DNA of 5,360 bases. It comes from a virus. Lineage: Duplodnaviria; Heunggongvirae; Uroviricota; Caudoviricetes. Both the position numbers and the translations under genes were made by a program. Numbering within the stretch: position 1 is the first letter of the stretch; every line of letters starts with the position of its first letter. The stretch lies in the IMG/VR virus record IMGVR_UViG_3300022758_000450; one strand, 5' to 3'. Below, one piece after another: positions 541-5,360 of this stretch. Under the pieces are notes generated by a model that searched no databases, had not been told where the DNA came from, and worked only from the letters and a program-made list of their open reading frames with translations.

Positions 541-629
541 ACAAAACAGAGAAGAACACCTGCGGTGGCTGCCGCCCGGATGGATTGGGTTATGAGCCCG
601 TCGTCCGGTGATGCTCTTCTCTGTTTTGT
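541..629. repeat. Perfect 15-bp inverted repeat (ACAAAACAGAGAAGA / TCTTCTCTGTTTTGT) flanking a 59-bp GC-rich core; function unknown
   Basis: Arms 541-555 and 615-629 are exact reverse complements. Lies in a GC-rich stretch (about 472-900) where the track shows only mutually overlapping, low-complexity ORFs on both strands. A GC hairpin (514-527) lies just to the left. Confidence 0.5.
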
Positions 630-929
630 AAAAAGGACGATACCAGCCGGAAGCAAGGGTACAAACTGGTACCGCCAGGACTACACACAGCATAAAGTTG
701 TGGTGCCGGGTGCCTCCCGGTGCCTGGCGAAGGTTGCACACCAGACGGGTGGGTATCCACAGAAGGTCGACTGTCAGCCTCAACCTTAACCCGCGTGCGC
801 TGAGCCGCATTCACCACAACGCTAAGGATTCTCTTTGGTTGAAAATACTTAGCTGTTATGTGCCTGTCTTTTCACCACTTCAGGCTCGGTGGTATCCTTT
901 TAAGCCCGTATACATAAAAGGAAAATCAA

Positions 930-1175
930 ATGACTTTTGATGAAAAAGAACTTGATAATGCAATTAATAAAATCATCGTAACGTCGCTCTTTTCCTGTCT
1001 CAGCGACACTCAGCAGAAACAGTTCTACGAATCGGCTTTCAACATGATCGAGCGTTGTTGTTTCTGCGATGCCGACGAGTTACCTGAAAAAATCAGGAAA
1101 CAGTTGGCTGATGCTCTTCGAGTGCGACTTTCTGACCAATTTTCTGAAATGTGCTCTCCGAATTTGGACAAATAG
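930..1175 (+). CDS. Hypothetical small protein (81 aa)
   Basis: ATG at 930 preceded by AAAGGA (917-922) at about 7 nt spacing. Translation is charged with balanced composition and 4 Cys. 3' end overlaps the convergent ORF 1093..1410 by 83 nt. Confidence 0.5.
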   Translation: MTFDEKELDNAINKIIVTSLFSCLSDTQQKQFYESAFNMIERCCFCDADELPEKIRKQLADALRVRLSDQFSEMCSPNLDK

Positions 1176-1410
1176 AAAAGGACCATTTCCATTCAGGGTC
1201 TGATGGAAATACTTCAGCCTGTTCCAAAGCACGGCGTAAAGAGAACACAACTCCAGCCATAATCTGATGTTTCCCATTGGTCCAGCTATCGCCGCTCTGA
1301 TCTACAGGGGCGGCTATGTCGTATGACCAAACGACTTCACAGTTATTGTTTAAAATCTGGACTTTCATTTCATACACCTGCTTTAACATGAGTGCATAGT
1401 GGCACAACAT
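1093..1410 (-). CDS. Hypothetical protein (105 aa, or 91 aa from internal ATG at 1368); first ORF downstream of the putative leftward early promoter
   Basis: Track ORF. ATG at 1410 lacks a clear SD; internal ATG at 1368 has AGGTG 6 nt upstream. Not arginine-rich, so not recognisably N-like. Overlaps the + strand ORF 930..1175 at the 3' end, so one of the two may be spurious. Confidence 0.4.
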   Translation of the reverse strand: MLCHYALMLKQVYEMKVQILNNNCEVVWSYDIAAPVDQSGDSWTNGKHQIMAGVVFSLRRALEQAEVFPSDPEWKWSFSICPNSESTFQKIGQKVALEEHQPTVS

Positions 1411-1497
1411 GACTCAACGAATCACCCTAGACTTTATATGCCCCAGGTGGCTACTTCGTGGGCGTCCTGCCTGTCCGTGATAGCTTACATTATGTTG

Positions 1498-1510
1498 CTA
1501 CTTAAAGTAG
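1498..1510. promoter_or_regulatory. OL-like operator: 13-bp palindrome CTACTT-A-AAGTAG matching the OR operators in 12 of 13 positions
   Basis: Perfect dyad around a central A. Its reverse complement CTACTTTAAGTAG differs by 1 nt from the twice-repeated CTATTTTAAGTAG at 3728-3763. On the minus strand it is followed directly by a near-consensus -10 (CATAAT, plus coordinates 1489-1494) upstream of the ORF starting at 1410. The -35 is weak. Confidence 0.55.
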
Positions 1511-1517
1511 TAAAAAT

Positions 1518-1546
1518 CAACAACAAAAAGTAGATATTTGTTGTTG
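1518..1546. repeat. 10-bp perfect inverted repeat (CAACAACAAA / TTTGTTGTTG) with a 9-bp spacer containing an AAGTAG operator half-site
   Basis: Arms 1518-1527 and 1537-1546 are exact reverse complements. The half-site AAGTAG (1528-1533) sits 23 bp from the matching half of the 1498-1510 operator, the same phasing as the two OR operators. Confidence 0.4.
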
Positions 1547-1691
1547 TCTATGATTTTTCTATAATTAATTGAAAGTTAAATGTTTTTGCTGATTTACTAT
1601 GCTGTAAACTGAAAATATCGCACGAAGTTGGAGTAGGTATTGAGCATAGTGAATTATGAGGAGGGAGTTTTTTATGAGATTAATCAGGGAG

Positions 1692-1724
1692 AAAGAAGAG
1701 TAAAGCCCGGTTATGCGGCCGGGC
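1692..1724 (-). terminator. Intrinsic terminator ending the minus-strand cI-side cassette
   Basis: On the minus strand, immediately after the stop at 1732-1734: GC stem GCCCGG/CCGGGC (1705-1710 with 1719-1724), 8-nt loop, then T-rich tract TTTACTCTTCTTTC (plus coordinates 1692-1704). Confidence 0.6.
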
Positions 1725-1731
1725 ACATGCA

Positions 1732-1983
1732 TTACTTTGTAAGTTCTAGAACTCGTTGAGCCAGCCCTTTAAATTGTTCGTTAAAGGCGTCTCTGCTTGA
1801 TTTCATTGTATTTAAGGCATGCCCAAATTGCCCTGAATCGCGAATTTGCTGATCACTGATGGAGAAAACAGGTGTCGCTAGTTGTTGGCTTATTGCGATT
1901 AATGAGTTGAAATCGGAAATATGCGCAAGATCATAGGCTGATAAATCTCCACTGACTGTTGTTTTGTTAATTGCATGTTGCAC
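1732..1983 (-). CDS. Hypothetical small protein (83 aa), distal gene of the ParA-like cassette
   Basis: Track ORF with GTG start at 1983, placed 1 nt after the TAA (1985-1987) that closes the ParA-like reading frame, which suggests coupled translation. Followed by the terminator. No recognisable motif. Confidence 0.5.
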   Translation of the reverse strand: MQHAINKTTVSGDLSAYDLAHISDFNSLIAISQQLATPVFSISDQQIRDSGQFGHALNTMKSSRDAFNEQFKGLAQRVLELTK

Positions 1984-1984
1984 T

Positions 1985-2815
1985 TTATCTCGTGGAATTA
2001 TGCAGGTAATTTTTTTCTAGATTTGGCACTAAGATCGAATCAACAGCATCACGGATAGCTGCCATCCATTTTTCGAAAGATTTTACAGGTGCTCCTTTAC
2101 GCGGCCTGTATCTCTGCTGAATCATACCTAGAAACTGCGGTGCATTTTTTAATTGATTGTGAAGAGTTACCATCATTATTTTCTTTAAATAATGCTAATT
2201 CTTTGTGCCAGCGAGGTATATTTTTTTGAGAGAGAGCGAATTGCTTGCCAGCAAAAAAAGTCTGGAGCTACAGGTACGATAAAATAGTCACTTGACATGA
2301 GAACTACTTCATTTAAACCTCCAACATTAGGGCTGAGATCATAAAGAATGTAATCAATATTATTCTTCATGGCGATTAGCTGTAATATTTTTTGGCAGGT
2401 TCCCTGGTATATTTTCTTGTAGCAGGAATACCAGCAGCAATTTTTTAGAGAAACACTTATCTGTGAATCTAAGTCCGAAACATCTAAATGTCCGGGAAGA
2501 AGCAGAAGGTTTTTCATGCAGTGTAGGGTGTAATTTTCCCGTTTCTTTTTCAAGGTATGCTTCAGGTTGTCCGCCATTAATCAAATATTCTACAATAGGT
2601 CCAAGAGTTAAGTTATCTCTGCTAGAATAAAAAGAATCTAAACCCTCATCAATCTTTTCATAGCCAAGAACCATTCCTGTTAGATTACATTGCGAATCAA
2701 GGTCAACCATCAATACTTTCTTGCCTTCATCCGCAAGTGCCCATCCAAGATTGAAGGTTGTTGTGGTTTTACTTACCCCACCTTTATGATTAAAAAAACA
2801 AATTGATTTTGTCAT
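1985..2815 (-). pseudogene. ParA/Soj/MinD-family P-loop ATPase gene, reading frame broken twice (+1 then -1)
   Basis: Track ORF 2360..2815 gives the N-terminus with deviant Walker A (MTKSICFFNHKGGVSKTTTTFNLGWALADEGKKVLMVDLDSQ). ORF 2185..2577, in another frame, gives the Walker B region (IDYILYDLSPNVGGLNEVVLMSSDYFIVPVAPDFF), closely matching Soj YDYIIIDSPPALGPL...IIPIQCEFF. ORF 1985..2176 is back in the first frame and resembles a ParA C-terminal region. Total span is about 277 codons, typical for Soj-type ParA. AAGGA lies 9 nt upstream of the ATG at 2815. Confidence 0.7.
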
Positions 2816-2984
2816 GTTTCTCTATCCTTTCGACCCCCAGCATATTGTAATTTACGCTGGGTGATTATTTTATATTGTTAATAATAATGTTTAATAAAAA
2901 TAAGAGAGTAAAACAACTATTAGTAATAGCACTTGCTTGCTAAATATTATTTTTTACCTTTAGTTCTATAGTCTAAACGAAGAA

Positions 2985-3746
2985 CTAAAGCCGGTTGTAT
3001 TTAATTGATTCGTGTATCAATGCTTTGCCCATAACATAAAGTTGATCTTGGGACTTCTCATCAATGTACCATTTCTCATAGGCTGGATTATCCGAAAGAA
3101 CGGCGAGTTTGTTGCCTTGCATTTGTAGACGTTTAACGTGGAACGTCTTACCATAAACGAAAGAGTAAACACCATCAGTTTGGAAGTTGCGAACAGAAAT
3201 GTCGACAAACAGTCGATCTCCGGAAACTAGAGTAGGGGACATGCTGTCGCCATTTACAGTCATAACTTTAATATCATCTTGAGAACGATTACCGAAAAGA
3301 GAACGGGCATGCTCTGTTGTGAACTCAATGGCGTAGAGCACATCAACATAGTCTGAAAGCATATAGGTCCCAGGTCCTGCGCTAACGCTAAGATCCAAAA
3401 CTTCTATCCTGTATACATCGGGTTTTGTTGGATTGGGGATGCTTGCCATTTCCTTACATCCTTCTCTCTCACCAACACCATATTCTAAATATGAAGCTGA
3501 TACCCCCAGAGCCAATGCAAGTTTATTCATGACAGAGGCACGAGGCTTCGCAGCGCCGATTGTGTATCGCCGCGCCATTTCATATGTAACGCCCACAAGA
3601 CTTTTGAGTTGGGTGACAGAAATTCCCTTGTTTGTCATTAGCTCGTTTAGTCTCTTGGCGAAATCTGGATACTTCTGTTCTTCTACCATAGGTAGAAGAT
3701 TACTCGCATCACATACGCTAGTCATTTCTATTTTAAGTAGTTGCAT
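2985..3746 (-). CDS. cI: CI-type phage repressor: N-terminal HTH (XRE family) plus C-terminal LexA-like S24 autopeptidase domain
   Basis: Track ORF. HTH segment FAKRLNELMTNKGISVTQLKSLVGVTYEMARRY; probable Ala-Gly cleavage site in LSVSAGPG; catalytic Ser in VNGDSMSPTL and Lys in HVKRL. Divergent from the cro-like gene with operators between. Start is ambiguous (ATG at 3746, 3725 or 3689); none has an SD, consistent with a leaderless PRM-type transcript. Confidence 0.88.
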   Translation of the reverse strand: MQLLKIEMTSVCDASNLLPMVEEQKYPDFAKRLNELMTNKGISVTQLKSLVGVTYEMARRYTIGAAKPRASVMNKLALALGVSASYLEYGVGEREGCKEMASIPNPTKPDVYRIEVLDLSVSAGPGTYMLSDYVDVLYAIEFTTEHARSLFGNRSQDDIKVMTVNGDSMSPTLVSGDRLFVDISVRNFQTDGVYSFVYGKTFHVKRLQMQGNKLAVLSDNPAYEKWYIDEKSQDQLYVMGKALIHESIKYNRL

Positions 3747-3787
3747 TTTGCTATTTTAAGTAGCATCATCCCTCTGAATTTCAGAGG
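3728..3787. promoter_or_regulatory. OR region: two identical 13-bp operators (3728-3740, 3751-3763) and a perfect 17-bp palindrome (3771-3787) between the divergent cI and cro starts
   Basis: CTATTTTAAGTAG occurs twice with 23-bp centre-to-centre spacing. Each copy is an imperfect dyad (10 of 13) and carries TAAAAT on the minus strand, a -10-like hexamer a few nt from the cI ATG candidates. CCTCTGAA-T-TTCAGAGG (3771-3787) is a perfect palindrome centred 22 bp from operator 2 and overlaps the cro SD. Confidence 0.6.
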
Positions 3788-3795
3788 AGAAAGGT

Positions 3796-4059
3796 ATGTC
3801 ATCTCAAAACTACACAGAGAAAGCAGTAAAAGCTGCGGGAAAATCTTTATCTGAAGTAGCCCGTCACTTTGGTTTTAAGTCCACTCAATCCGTCGCTAAT
3901 TGGGTAATTAACAATCAAGTCCCGTCAGAACGGGTTTTACAACTTTGTGAGTTGGGAAACTGGTCCGTGACCCCTCATGAACTGCGTCCTGATATTTACC
4001 CCAATCCAAATGATGGATTACCTGAGTGCTATTCAAAAGTTAGCGGTTCAGCTGCGTAA
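3796..4059 (+). CDS. cro: Cro-like small HTH regulator (YdaS-type Cro/CI family)
   Basis: ATG at 3796 with GAGGAG (3784-3789) 6 nt upstream. 87-aa protein with HTH segment KSLSEVARHFGFKSTQSVANWV. Divergent from the repressor gene across the operator region. Confidence 0.8.
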   Translation: MSSQNYTEKAVKAAGKSLSEVARHFGFKSTQSVANWVINNQVPSERVLQLCELGNWSVTPHELRPDIYPNPNDGLPECYSKVSGSAA

Positions 4060-4087
4060 ACGTAACCACAGAAACGAGGAGTTAACC

Positions 4088-4645
4088 GTGGGTAAGCATC
4101 ACTGGAAAGTAGAAAAACAGCCTGAGTGGTACGTGAAAGCAGTCAGAAAAACTATCGCAGCGTTGCCGGGGGGTTACGCTGAAGCTGCTGACTGGCTGGA
4201 CGTAACAGAGAACGCATTATTTAACCGCCTTCGTGCCGATGGCGATCAGATTTTCCCGCTGGGATGGGCAATGATTTTGCAACGTGCTGGTGGAACTCAC
4301 TTCATTGCTGACGCTGTGGCGCAGTCTGCAAATGGCATCTTTGTGTCTCTTCCTGACGTCGAGGATGTGGACAATGCCGATATTAACCAGCGTCTGCTGG
4401 AAGTCATTGAACAGATCGGCAGTTATTCCAGACAGATTCGTTCAGCAATTGAAGACGGTGTAGTGGAACCGCATGAGAAGACAGCAATTAACGACGAGCT
4501 GTATCTCTCAATTTCGAAGCTGCAGGAGCATGCAGCACTTGTCTACAAAATTTTTTGCATTTCAGAAAGTAATGACGCCCGCGAGTGTGCAGCTCCGGGC
4601 GTCGTGGCGTCGATTGCTTCTGGTTGTGGAGAAACTAACGCATGA
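4088..4645 (+). CDS. CII-like / YdaT-family early regulator (185 aa from GTG start)
   Basis: Track ORF 3977..4645. Preferred start is GTG at 4088, same frame, with GAGGAG (4076-4081) 6 nt upstream and no overlap with cro. Position (directly after cro, before the replication gene) and size match the YdaS-YdaT arrangement recalled from Rac-type prophages. Stop TGA overlaps the next ATG (ATGA at 4642-4645). Confidence 0.65.
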
Positions 4646-4980
4646 ACAGTTTAACAACACACTACCGTCGCTCGCAACTGATTGCGCTTCCTGTACCGGG
4701 TGGAAAAGCGAAGGTGGAATATTGCTATGCAGTAAATGTACCAGGTGACAGGGAAATTGTAACCCACAGCTTTGCAGAGTGGGCTGTGGGGGATTTCAAC
4801 CGGCAGAAGGAGACAGTCCTTTGCGACAAGTTAACCGCTGGTTCAAAGATCACTACGGAGTGCCCGTCAGAGTCATTCGTTGGGAGCCGGAAACACAACG
4901 GGTTATCTACCTCCGCGAAGGTTATGAGCATGAATGCTTCAGTCCGCTCGAACAGTTTCGTCGTAAATTCAGGGAAATAG
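4642..4980 (+). CDS. Hypothetical small protein; reading frame ambiguous (alternative frame 4779..5000), possibly frameshifted
   Basis: ATG at 4642 is coupled to the upstream stop (ATGA), with GGAG about 11 nt upstream. The first ~55 residues look protein-like, but the C-terminal third is S/T/N-rich. The overlapping frame 4779..5000 (GTG start, no SD) looks more protein-like downstream of about 4800 and ends 8 nt past the O-like ATG. Confidence 0.35.
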
Positions 4981-4989
4981 AGGTCGGTC

Positions 4990-5360
4990 ATGAGCACTAA
5001 ATTAACCGGCTATGTATGGGATGGTTGCGCAGCGTCAGGCATGAAATTATCCAGCGTGGCAATTATGGCCCGCCTGGCTGATTTCAGTAATGACGAAGGT
5101 GTGTGCTGGCCATCAATTGAAACCATTGCCCGTCAGATTGGCGCGGGGATGAGTACCGTCAGGACGGCTATCGCACGGCTGGAAGCAGAAGGCTGGTTAA
5201 CGCGTAAGGCGCGTCGCCAGGGTAACCGCAATGCGTCGAATGTTTATCAGCTTAACGTTGCGAAGCTTCAGGCAGCGGCATTTTCTCAACTGTCAGATTC
5301 TGACCCGTCAAAATCTGACGCATCAAAATCTGACCCGTCAAAATTTGATGCGTCGAGTCG
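4990..5360 (+). CDS. Phage replication initiator, O-like, N-terminal HTH DNA-binding domain (5' partial; continues beyond window)
   Basis: ATG at 4990 with AGAGG 6 nt upstream. N-terminus MSTKLTGYVWDGCAASGMKLSSVAIMARLADFSNDEGVCWPSIETIARQIGAGMSTVRTAIARLEAEGWL is the winged-helix N-domain typical of lambdoid prophage replication proteins (recalled as Rac YdaU-like), followed by a repetitive SDPSKSD linker. No stop before the window ends. Confidence 0.85.
   Translation, partial: MSTKLTGYVWDGCAASGMKLSSVAIMARLADFSNDEGVCWPSIETIARQIGAGMSTVRTAIARLEAEGWLTRKARRQGNRNASNVYQLNVAKLQAAAFSQLSDSDPSKSDASKSDPSKFDASS
5299..5360. repeat. Iteron-like 15-bp tandem direct repeats inside the replication initiator gene (candidate origin); array runs off the window
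   Basis: TCTGACCCGTCAAAA (5299-5313), TCTGACGCATCAAAA (5314-5328), TCTGACCCGTCAAAA (5329-5343), then a degenerate TTTGATGCGTCGAGT (5344-5358). Each unit has an internal dyad TGAC-NNN-TCA. Confidence 0.6.

What the first reader, a model, noticed from the sequence alone, without database searches (positions are those of the whole stretch)
1451..1546. Operator family shared between OL and OR with conserved 23-bp phasing
Seen in sequence: the palindrome CTACTTAAAGTAG (1498-1510) matches the twice-repeated OR 13-mer CTATTTTAAGTAG (3728-3740, 3751-3763) in 12 of 13 positions as its reverse complement. Half-sites occur at CTACTT 1451-1456 (47 bp away) and AAGTAG 1528-1533 (23 bp away), echoing the 23-bp spacing of the OR pair. 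Established knowledge: lambdoid CI repressors bind related multipartite operators at OL and OR. Inference: the same repressor controls a leftward promoter near 1490 and the divergent PR/PRM pair, so everything between (cI and the ParA-like cassette) is the immunity-region insert. The half-sites are weak evidence on their own.
Basis: partly seen in the sequence, partly recalled or inferred. Interest (0 to 1): 0.55.

Follow-up and report, generated by a model that had tools for sequence, protein, structure and literature searches.

The report
Prophage repressor operators at OL and OR
The repeated 13-base palindromes are very probably the binding sites of this prophage's own CI-type repressor at its leftward and rightward early promoters, an ordinary lambda-style genetic switch of an immunity type that no isolated phage in the collections searched carries; one of the claimed "half-sites" belongs instead to a conserved structured leader RNA.

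Summary
The 13-mer family CTAYTTWAAGTAG is far above chance: 6 strand-matches against 0.47 expected.

Comparative evidence supports the interpretation. In 56 related loci encoding the same CI DNA-binding domain, the motif occurs almost only at two places. One is OR (two sites 22-23 bp apart, between cI and cro). The other is an OL pair 23 bp apart (24 in one locus), 1.4-2.9 kb beyond cI. In 1.29 Mb of lambdoid DNA without this CI it occurs once. Natural domain-swap relatives lack it and carry other palindromes at the same positions.

Corrections:
- AAGTAG 1528-1533 is the good half of a full, degenerate operator, O_L2 (1521-1533).
- CTACTT 1451-1456 is not an operator. It is an invariant part of a ~70-nt structured RNA at the 5' end of the PL transcript, shared by phages of many immunity types.
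- A third candidate site, O_R3 (3683-3695), overlaps the cI start codon.

The immunity module spans about 1479-4063, and the ParA-like gene is interchangeable cargo.

Verdict: a new member of a known kind. Binding is inferred, not shown.

The parts
1498..1510 (.). O_L1, promoter-proximal left operator CTACTTAAAGTAG. It lies inside the 17-bp spacer of the inferred PL.
   Evidence: Exact consensus match. Present at the equivalent position in all same-CI loci that reach OL, with variants CTACCAAAAGTAG, CTACTTAAAGTTG, CTACCTAAAGTAG and CTATTTAAAGTAG.
1521..1533 (.). O_L2, a degenerate left operator CAACAAAAAGTAG (10/13). It is 23 bp centre-to-centre from O_L1 and abuts the PL -35.
   Evidence: 3-mismatch match. 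Conserved in position, and reads CTACAAAAAGTAG, CAACTAAAAGTAG or CTACAGAAAGTAG in relatives, while the sequence to its right changes with the cargo.
1492..1520 (-). Inferred PL: -35 TTGATT (1520-1515), a 17-bp spacer holding O_L1, and -10 CAACAT (1497-1492). The start is predicted near 1485. An alternative -10 is CATAAT (1494-1489).
   Evidence: Read from the sequence. The layout is the same as PR (-35, 4 bp, 13-mer, -10). The -35 is conserved across loci (TTGATT, with variants TTGATA and TTGTAT) and the -10 follows CAnnAT in all but one locus (GAATAT in L054). The simple consensus scan did not flag it.
1412..1483 (-). Conserved structured leader RNA at the 5' end of the PL transcript.
   Evidence: Covariance-model hit of 80 bits. 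Two helices with compensatory changes. Shared by phages of many operator types.
1732..2815 (-). ParA-like P-loop ATPase gene, the cargo between cI and OL. It is broken in the window by seven 1-base insertions.
   Evidence: Split ORFs. The EC11 relative has an intact 358-aa gene matching AAA_31/CbiA. All seven indels are an extra T in a T-run. Other same-immunity loci carry different cargo here.
2985..3689 (-). cI repressor, 234 aa, with an N-terminal HTH and a C-terminal S24 peptidase domain.
   Evidence: Pfam HTH_3 and Peptidase_S24. Start at 3689 as annotated in relatives. 42% identical to HK022 CI, mostly in the C-terminal domain.
3683..3695 (.). Candidate O_R3, CTACCATAGGTAG, the centre of a perfect 8-3-8 palindrome at 3680-3698 that overlaps the cI start codon.
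   Evidence: 3-mismatch match that keeps the outer CTAC/GTAG. Unchanged in 52 of 54 same-CI sequences although the adjacent 17 bp vary freely. HK022-type relatives have their own operator type, GAACCATGAGTTC, at the same place.
3697..3725 (-). Inferred PRM: -35 ATGACT (3725-3720), a 17-bp spacer, and -10 TAATCT (3702-3697). The predicted start is at or next to the cI AUG, giving a leaderless mRNA.
   Evidence: Read from the sequence. In the OR alignment the hexamers are conserved, and the spacer is variable in sequence but fixed in length. Inference only.
3728..3740 (.). O_R2, CTATTTTAAGTAG, lying between the PRM -35 and the PR -35.
   Evidence: 44 of 54 identical; the others have 1-3 changes.
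3741..3769 (+). Inferred PR: -35 TTGCAT (3741-3746), a 17-bp spacer holding O_R1, and -10 CATCAT (3764-3769).
   Evidence: The -10 is CATTAT or TATTAT in relatives, and the spacer is 16-17 bp.
3751..3763 (.). O_R1, CTATTTTAAGTAG, inside the PR spacer, 23 bp from O_R2.
   Evidence: spacing is 23 bp in 45 sequences and 22 bp in 9.
3796..4059 (+). cro-like gene, 87 aa, YdaS-type HTH. The right end of the immunity module is at about 4063.
   Evidence: Pfam YdaS_toxin HTH. SfII homology resumes at 4064. Cro co-varies with the CI N-terminal domain.

Best explanation
Window 1492-1533 is the left operator-promoter (OL/PL) of a lambdoid prophage, and it uses the same 13-bp pseudo-palindromic operator family (CTAYTT-W-AAGTAG) as OR.

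Proposed mechanism. Dimers of the prophage's CI repressor (HTH plus S24 domain, 2985-3689) bind O_L1 (1498-1510) and O_R1 (3751-3763). By analogy with lambda, Cro (3796-4059) probably binds the same sites. Each of these sites fills the spacer between the -35 and -10 hexamers of PL and PR, so bound repressor excludes RNA polymerase. O_L2 (1521-1533) and O_R2 (3728-3740) lie 23 bp away, directly against the -35 hexamers, which would allow pairwise cooperative binding. O_L2 has a weak left half and would depend on that cooperativity. O_R2 lies 2 bp from the inferred PRM -35, so it could activate cI transcription. O_R3 (3683-3695), at the cI start, could shut PRM off.

The block from about 1479 to 4063 (OL, cargo, cI, OR, cro) is the exchangeable immunity module, and the ParA-like gene is replaceable cargo within it.

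What is shown: motif enrichment, positions, spacing, co-variation with the CI N-terminal domain and Cro, and the module boundaries. What is inferred: binding itself, the promoter hexamers and start sites, cooperativity, and the activation and autoregulation roles.
For: Enrichment in the window: (6 strand-matches against 0.47 expected; 0 of 200 shuffles).

Position specificity: in 53 IMG/VR loci with the same HTH type, matches with up to 2 mismatches fall at -74 and -51 from the cI ATG and at a pair 23 bp apart, 1.4-2.9 kb downstream, with very few elsewhere.

Association with the repressor: 157 hits with at most 1 mismatch in 462 kb that encode this CI type, against 1 hit in 1.29 Mb that do not. 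The paired OR pattern has 0 matches in 596 Gb of species-representative genomes.

Natural domain-swap control: L056-L058 share 91-93% of the CI C-terminal domain but only 16-24% of the N-terminal domain, have another Cro, and have no 13-mers. They carry other palindromes at the OR and OL positions.

Footprint at OL: only the block TTGCTACTTAAAGTAG-yAAAAATCAAC-wACwAAAAGTAGA survives when the cargo on the right is exchanged or the leader on the left is exchanged.

Parallel promoter layout at PL and PR.

Boundaries against SfII at 1478/1479 and 4063/4064.

Domains of CI and Cro.
Against: No binding or expression data exist. No isolated phage in INPHARED carries this cI/cro, and no paper in the library contains the sites.

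PL and PR both score below the thresholds of the simple promoter scan, so the hexamer assignments rest on conservation and analogy.

CI and Cro always co-occur, so the data cannot say which protein, or whether both, reads the sites.

O_L2 in this window has 3 mismatches. O_R3 has 3 mismatches and lies 45 bp from O_R2, unlike lambda. No third OL site was found.
Confidence: 0.85

Rival explanations
1. The 13-mers are read only by Cro, or by another regulator of the module, and not by CI. CI would act through different sites.
For: Cro (YdaS-type HTH) co-varies with the motif exactly as the CI N-terminal domain does, so the comparative data cannot separate the two.
Against: No other repeated motif is conserved in OR or OL of the same-CI loci. 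In characterised lambdoid switches CI and Cro share their operators (established knowledge). The geometry suits a repressor: a site in each promoter spacer and a second site next to the PRM -35.
Confidence: 0.07
2. The sites belong to the ParA-like cassette, as centromere-like or autoregulatory repeats for a partition ATPase, rather than to the immunity switch.
For: One site pair lies just beyond the 3' end of the ParA-like gene, and ParA systems use repeated palindromes (established knowledge).
Against: The same OL pair and OR sites are present in same-CI loci that carry other cargo and no ParA. The distance from OL to cI ranges from 1.4 to 2.9 kb with the cargo, yet the sites persist.
Confidence: 0.02
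3. The matches are chance A+T-rich palindromes in promoter-like intergenic DNA.
For: The regions are A+T-rich, and isolated hexamer half-sites occur at near-chance frequency.
Against: 0 of 200 shuffles reach the observed count. There is one hit with at most 1 mismatch in 1.29 Mb of comparable phage DNA lacking this CI, against 157 in 462 kb with it. Positions and spacing are conserved.
Confidence: 0.01
4. The palindromes act at the RNA level, as short hairpins in transcripts, rather than as protein-binding DNA.
For: They are inverted repeats, and a real structured RNA lies next to OL.
Against: The arms are 6 bp and A+T-rich. Variants among loci are not compensatory: for example CTACTTAAAGTTG and CAACAAAAAGTAG break the symmetry. 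O_L1 and O_L2 lie upstream of the inferred transcription start.
Confidence: 0.02

Closest known systems
Bacteriophage lambda OL/OR operators and the CI/Cro switch
   Same: A divergent cI-cro pair. An HTH + S24 repressor. One operator family at OR and at a distant OL, about 2.25 kb apart here. O1 sites overlap the early promoters. Adjacent sites are about 23-24 bp centre-to-centre. A site lies next to the PRM -35. A leaderless cI start is plausible. Cargo genes lie between cI and OL, in the position of rexAB.
   Different: The sites are 13 bp (CTAYTT-W-AAGTAG), not 17 bp, and there is no sequence relation. OL has two recognisable sites, not three. The candidate O_R3 is 45 bp from O_R2 and lies on the cI start codon. 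Cro is a YdaS-type HTH. Nothing here has been tested biochemically.
Coliphage HK022 CI repressor and its operators
   Same: It is the closest studied repressor compared here: 42% identity overall, concentrated in the C-terminal oligomerisation/cleavage domain. IMG/VR relatives combine this window's C-terminal domain (91-93%) with an HK022-like N-terminal domain and HK022-like palindromes G[AT]AC-N5-GT[AT]C at OR and OL. The layout is the same, including a site on the cI start codon.
   Different: The N-terminal DNA-binding domain is different and so is the operator sequence. HK022 has putL downstream of PL, whereas this window has a different leader RNA.
Shigella/E. coli serotype-converting phages SfII, SfIV, SfV and related thrW prophages
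   Same: They share the flanks at 94-97% identity: the early-left genes, the PL leader, ymfL/cII, and (in SfII and SfIV) the O-like replication gene.
   Different: They are heteroimmune, with unrelated cI/cro and other operator palindromes at the same positions (for example SfV GGTACATTATGTA).
HK022/HK639 put antiterminator RNAs (for the leader that contains the 1451 'half-site')
   Same: The position is immediately downstream of PL. The size is about 70 nt, with paired stems. Sequence conservation is strong across hosts (PMC9378689).
   Different: The covariance model of the leader does not hit HK022 or HK639 putL at E<=10. The architecture differs: a closing helix encloses an invariant core and one hairpin. 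No second copy was found within the 8-15 kb held for any locus. Function is untested.

Membership tests
Lambdoid CI/Cro immunity switch with OL and OR operators | A repressor with an N-terminal HTH and a C-terminal LexA/S24 self-cleavage domain, transcribed divergently from a small cro gene | tested here: met
   Pfam HTH_3 + Peptidase_S24 for 2985-3689(-) and YdaS-type HTH for 3796-4059(+). An Ala-Gly site and the GDSM/VKRL Ser-Lys motifs are visible in the translation.
Lambdoid CI/Cro immunity switch with OL and OR operators | Repeated pseudo-palindromic sites in the cI-cro intergenic region that overlap PR and PRM | tested here: met
   Sites at 3728-3740 and 3751-3763, plus a candidate at 3683-3695. 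They are conserved in 54 sequences. The promoters are inferred, not mapped.
Lambdoid CI/Cro immunity switch with OL and OR operators | The same site family at a second, leftward promoter beyond cI (OL/PL) | tested here: met
   Sites at 1498-1510 and 1521-1533. Among loci with this CI type whose sequence reaches OL, all have the O_L1 site and most also show an O_L2 match 23 bp away, whatever the cargo or leader.
Lambdoid CI/Cro immunity switch with OL and OR operators | Operator sequence co-varies with the repressor's DNA-binding domain (heteroimmunity) | tested here: met
   157 hits against 1 hit. Domain-swap relatives L056-L058 lack the motif and have other palindromes.
Lambdoid CI/Cro immunity switch with OL and OR operators | Adjacent sites about two helical turns apart, permitting cooperative dimer pairs | tested here: met
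   23 bp at OL, and 23 bp (45 sequences) or 22 bp (9 sequences) at OR. Cooperativity itself could not be tested.
Lambdoid CI/Cro immunity switch with OL and OR operators | Three operator sites at each of OL and OR, as in lambda | tested here: inconclusive
   OR has a third, degenerate site 45 bp away. OL shows only two, and nothing is conserved to the right of O_L2.
Lambdoid CI/Cro immunity switch with OL and OR operators | Physical binding of CI/Cro to the sites and repression of PL/PR | not testable with these tools
   Needs EMSA or footprinting and reporter assays.
HK022-type put antiterminator RNA (for the leader 1412-1483) | Sequence and structure homology to putL/putR | tested here: not met
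   Model R1 finds no match in the HK022 or HK639 PL regions at E<=10. The sequences compared by eye share only short motifs.
HK022-type put antiterminator RNA (for the leader 1412-1483) | A promoter-proximal, ~70-nt structured RNA in the early-left transcript | tested here: met
   It begins about 7 nt after the inferred PL start. Two helices show covariation.
HK022-type put antiterminator RNA (for the leader 1412-1483) | Terminator read-through that depends on the RNA and on the RNA polymerase beta-prime zinc-binding domain | not testable with these tools
   Needs read-through assays (criterion taken from PMC9378689).
Lambda-type nutL (boxA/boxB) site | A boxA motif (GCUCUUUAACA-like) in the PL leader | tested here: not met
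   No match with up to 2 mismatches anywhere in the window. Some relatives do have an rrn-like boxA after the structured leader, or instead of it.

The most novel reading that the evidence does not exclude
It has no Rfam 15 match and no paper in the library searched contains its sequence. It has a 24-nt core that is invariant in the 40 aligned copies, and two helices with covariation.

The exact 20-mer core was found in over 120 viral contigs, and copies next to many different operator types were seen among them. It was also found in 76 stretches from one-genome-per-species assemblies, 72 of which gave full-length model matches across Enterobacterales genera (Escherichia, Xenorhabdus, Yersinia, Pectobacterium and others).

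The most novel reading not excluded is that this is a new class of cis-acting leader RNA that acts on a conserved host machine. One possibility is a put-like RNA that modifies RNA polymerase for terminator read-through. Another is the leader-derived RNA behind the termination-based superinfection immunity reported for SfV.
Probability: 0.2. Interest if true: 0.75.

Novelty: new member of a known kind. Interest (0 to 1): 0.33.

Why it matters
It defines the operator sequence, the site layout and the module boundaries of a lambdoid immunity type. The OL region of this type is held (at least 80% covered) in about 2% of complete E. coli genomes (105 of 5,426), yet no isolated phage in INPHARED carries it.

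This gives a ready-made, testable repressor/operator pair, with natural domain-swap controls. It also marks the cI-OL interval as a cargo hot spot, where a ParA-like ATPase and several alternative gene sets are exchanged.

The mechanism itself is textbook lambda biology, so the gain is in annotation rather than in concept. The adjacent leader RNA is the part that could be new biology.

Tried and rejected
(1) A third OL operator. Nothing is conserved to the right of O_L2 across cargo types. A 45-bp offset like that at OR gives only 8/13.

(2) CTACTT 1451-1456 as an operator half-site. Rejected: it is invariant in heteroimmune phages and lies inside the leader RNA.

(3) The leader as a put RNA. 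The covariance model does not hit HK022 or HK639 putL. King 2011 (PMC3187212) and Roberts 2007 (doi 10.1099/vir.0.83062-0) are not held, so prior description cannot be excluded.

(4) The leader as nutL. There is no boxA in the window.

(5) The 'M3-like RNA' of HK639 has no counterpart in the window.

(6) Rfam gives nothing at OL or the leader, only a sub-threshold STnc100 match elsewhere.

(7) The ParA-like protein as a known defence gene. PADLOC gives only weak P-loop matches.

(8) The single-sequence fold of the leader is not better than shuffles (z = -0.41). The structure shows up only through covariation.

(9) A test for an N-like gene downstream of boxA-type leaders was uninformative, because of IS and other cargo.

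(10) PDB sequence search with CI: no hit. Literature search for the site sequences: nothing relevant.

(11) The simple promoter scan did not call PL or PR.

Full report
**What the window is**

The 5,360-base window is the early regulatory region of an enterobacterial lambdoid prophage of the SfII/SfV/CPS-53/e14 mosaic group. Its flanks are 94-97% identical to Shigella phages SfII, SfIV and SfV. Its closest relatives are E. coli prophages; the one examined (EC11) is integrated beside tRNA-Thr/proA.

The genes, with their evidence:
- a yfdR-like gene at the left end;
- a 91-aa ORF, 1093-1368(-);
- a ParA-like ATPase gene, 1732-2815(-);
- cI, 2985-3689(-), with HTH_3 and Peptidase_S24 domains;
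- a YdaS-type cro, 3796-4059(+);
- a CII/YmfL-like gene, 4088-4645(+);
- an O-like replication gene from 4990.

**Check of the observation**

The consensus CTAYTTWAAGTAG with up to 2 mismatches matches only at 1498-1510, 3728-3740 and 3751-3763. That is 6 strand-matches against 0.47 expected, and 0 of 200 shuffles reach 6.

Isolated hexamer half-sites are not enriched once the full sites are removed.

Allowing 3 mismatches adds two informative sites:
- 3683-3695, CTACCATAGGTAG, which overlaps the cI start codon.

**Module boundaries**

SfII matches the window at 1-896, 1327-1478 and 4064-5356, but not at 1479-4063. The heteroimmune break therefore falls 20 bp left of the OL palindrome and 4 bp after the cro stop codon. 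That is the pattern expected of an exchangeable immunity module.

No isolated phage in INPHARED carries this cI/cro. By contrast, 105 of 5,426 complete E. coli genomes hold at least 80% of the OL region.

**Comparative test of the operator idea**

A scan of IMG/VR with the CI protein returned 59 loci. In the 53 whose CI keeps the N-terminal motif GVTYEM.RRY (CI 70-100% identical overall), matches with up to 2 mismatches fall at two places. One is -74 and -51 from the cI ATG, which is OR. The other is a pair 23 bp apart, 1.4-2.9 kb downstream of the cI start. Very few matches fall elsewhere.

The six loci with a different N-terminal domain have no match at all. Three of them, L056-L058, are natural domain swaps. 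Their CI C-terminal domains are 91-93% identical to this window's, but their N-terminal domains are only 16-24% identical, and their Cro is unrelated. At the OR position (L056-L058) and the OL position (L057, L058) they carry other palindromes. These are G[AT]AC-N5-GT[AT]C, like HK022's own operators, or TTAAC...GTTAA.

The paired OR pattern has no exact match in 596 Gb of species-representative genomes.

**Footprint at OL**

E. coli 09-00049 (L004) has a CI that is 99% identical, with an identical N-terminal domain. It carries two unrelated small genes in place of ParA. Between the two prophages, only one block is conserved around OL:

TTGCTACTTAAAGT[A/T]G-[T/C]AAAAATCAAC-[A/T]ACAAAAAGTAGA

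The sequence diverges on both sides of this block. Other same-immunity loci keep the block but have three other leader types to its left, including nut-like leaders with a boxA.

So the block is independent of both neighbours and follows only the repressor type. O_L2 reads CTACAAAAAGTAG in several relatives, which restores the outer CTAC/GTAG arms that are weakened in this window.

**Promoter architecture (inference from conservation)**

PR reads TTGCAT-TTTG-CTATTTTAAGTAG-CATCAT (3741-3769). On the minus strand, PL reads TTGATT-TTTA-CTACTTTAAGTAG-CAACAT (1520-1492). The two share one layout: -35, 4 bp, a 13-mer, then -10, with a 17-bp spacer.

Across loci:
- the -35 hexamers are conserved;
- the PR -10 is CATCAT, CATTAT or TATTAT;
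- the PL -10 follows CAnnAT in all but one locus.

An alternative PL -10, CATAAT at 1494-1489, cannot be excluded. O_L2 and O_R2 abut the -35 hexamers. Neither promoter passes the simple consensus scan.

On the cI side, ATGACT (3725-3720) and TAATCT (3702-3697) are conserved. They are separated by 17 bp that vary freely in sequence but never in length. That would start transcription at or next to the cI AUG, giving a leaderless mRNA as at lambda PRM (established knowledge), with O_R2 lying 2 bp from the -35.

The perfect 8-3-8 palindrome CTTCTACCATAGGTAGAAG (3680-3698) is unchanged in 52 of 54 sequences. HK022-type relatives have their own operator type at the same place. I therefore read it as a candidate O_R3. 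It lies 45 bp from O_R2, which is unlike lambda.

**The 1451 'half-site' and the leader RNA**

Window 1416-1478 is shared with many heteroimmune phages, among them SfII, SfV, SfIV, ST64B, phiNP and Kp4866-6. Its exact 20-mer core occurs in at least 120 IMG/VR contigs, next to many different operator types, including SfV-type, lambda-type and HK022-type. It also occurs in 76 stretches from species-representative assemblies, nearly all Enterobacterales.

An alignment of 40 distinct copies, read as the leftward transcript, shows:
- two helices with many compensatory variants.

On that alignment 88.5% of cells are paired, against 66.5% in shuffles. There are 104 double changes against 28, with 0 of 500 shuffles reaching the observed value, and slid controls give 22-42%. 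A second set from species-representative genomes gives 97.6% paired and 203 double changes. That alignment was fitted to the model, so it leans toward the structure.

A covariance model scores the window copy at 80 bits (1412-1483, minus strand). It finds one copy within the stretch held for each locus it hits, and nothing in the put regions of HK022 or HK639. Rfam has no match, and there is no boxA in the window.

The element is thus a real, conserved structured RNA that begins a few bases after the PL start. Its function is unknown. It sits where HK022 has putL (PMC9378689). In some relatives it is followed by an rrn-like boxA. SfV, which carries it, is reported to use a non-coding RNA for termination-based superinfection immunity (cited in PMC3475682; the primary paper is not held). 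Whatever it does, it is not part of the operator family.

**Mechanism and verdict**

The best explanation is a lambda-style switch. CI, and by analogy Cro, binds 13-bp sites that occupy the spacers of PL and PR. Partner sites 23 bp away allow cooperative pairs. There is a possible activating contact at PRM and a possible autoregulatory site on the cI start. The S24 domain would provide SOS-dependent induction.

Confidence that 1498-1510 and 1521-1533 form the OL of this repressor is about 0.85. The roles of individual sites, the start points, and which protein reads the sites all remain inferences. This is a new member of a known kind, with modest interest. The leader RNA beside it is the more unusual object.

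Noticed in passing
window 1412-1483 (- strand): A conserved ~70-nt structured RNA at the 5' end of the PL transcript. It has a 24-nt invariant core and two helices with strong covariation. It has no Rfam match, and the covariance model of the leader finds no match in the HK022/HK639 putL regions. It occurs next to many different operator types and in many Enterobacterales genera.
   Followed up: partly
window 3680-3725: A perfect 8-3-8 palindrome, CTTCTACCATAGGTAGAAG, centred on the cI start codon (candidate O_R3). Beside it is a conserved ATGACT-17-TAATCT promoter-like pair that would give a leaderless cI mRNA.
   Followed up: partly
window 3771-3787: An inverted repeat, CCTCTGA-ATT-TCAGAGG, at the start of the cro leader that pairs with the cro Shine-Dalgarno sequence. 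Relatives keep the CCTCT/AGAGG arms while the inner bases change.
   Followed up: no
window 1732-2815 (indels at about 2010, 2145, 2221, 2388, 2412, 2441, 2510): The ParA-like gene is split into four ORFs. Against the intact EC11 gene it differs by seven single-T insertions, all in T-runs. This looks like homopolymer sequencing error rather than decay.
   Followed up: yes
window 1371-1415; L002 4361-4595: The window has 45 bp where the EC11 relative has 235 bp. The EC11 segment encodes a 73-aa ClpX-type C4 zinc-finger protein, which is the first gene after the PL leader.
   Followed up: no
window 627-842 (- strand): A sub-threshold Rfam match to the sRNA STnc100 (37 bits; gathering score 47; E = 1.6e-05). 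It lies on the leftward transcript and ends in a hairpin followed by a U-run.
   Followed up: no
window 1538-1731: In the ParA-type cargo only: a rightward promoter-like TTGTTG-16-TATAAT (1538-1565), a 9-codon ORF with a strong Shine-Dalgarno sequence (1674-1703), and a G+C hairpin (1705-1724) that looks like the terminator of the ParA/cI transcript on the minus strand.
   Followed up: no
same-CI loci L004-L063, between cI and OL: The interval between cI and OL is a cargo hot spot. The distance from the cI start to OL ranges from 1.4 to 2.9 kb, which indicates several alternative gene sets in prophages with the same immunity; only the two-gene cargo of L004 was examined. PADLOC gives no firm defence-family match for the ParA-like protein or for the L004 pair.
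   Followed up: partly
L008, L077, L131 (downstream of the leader); L044, L045, L050 (in place of it): Some relatives have a short hairpin and an rrn-type boxA (GCUCUUUAACAA) right after the structured leader. Some same-immunity loci have a boxA-type leader and no structured leader.
   Followed up: partly
window 5301-5360: About four tandem 15-bp repeats (TGACCCGTCAAAATC-like) inside the O-like replication gene. They may be origin iterons.
   Followed up: no
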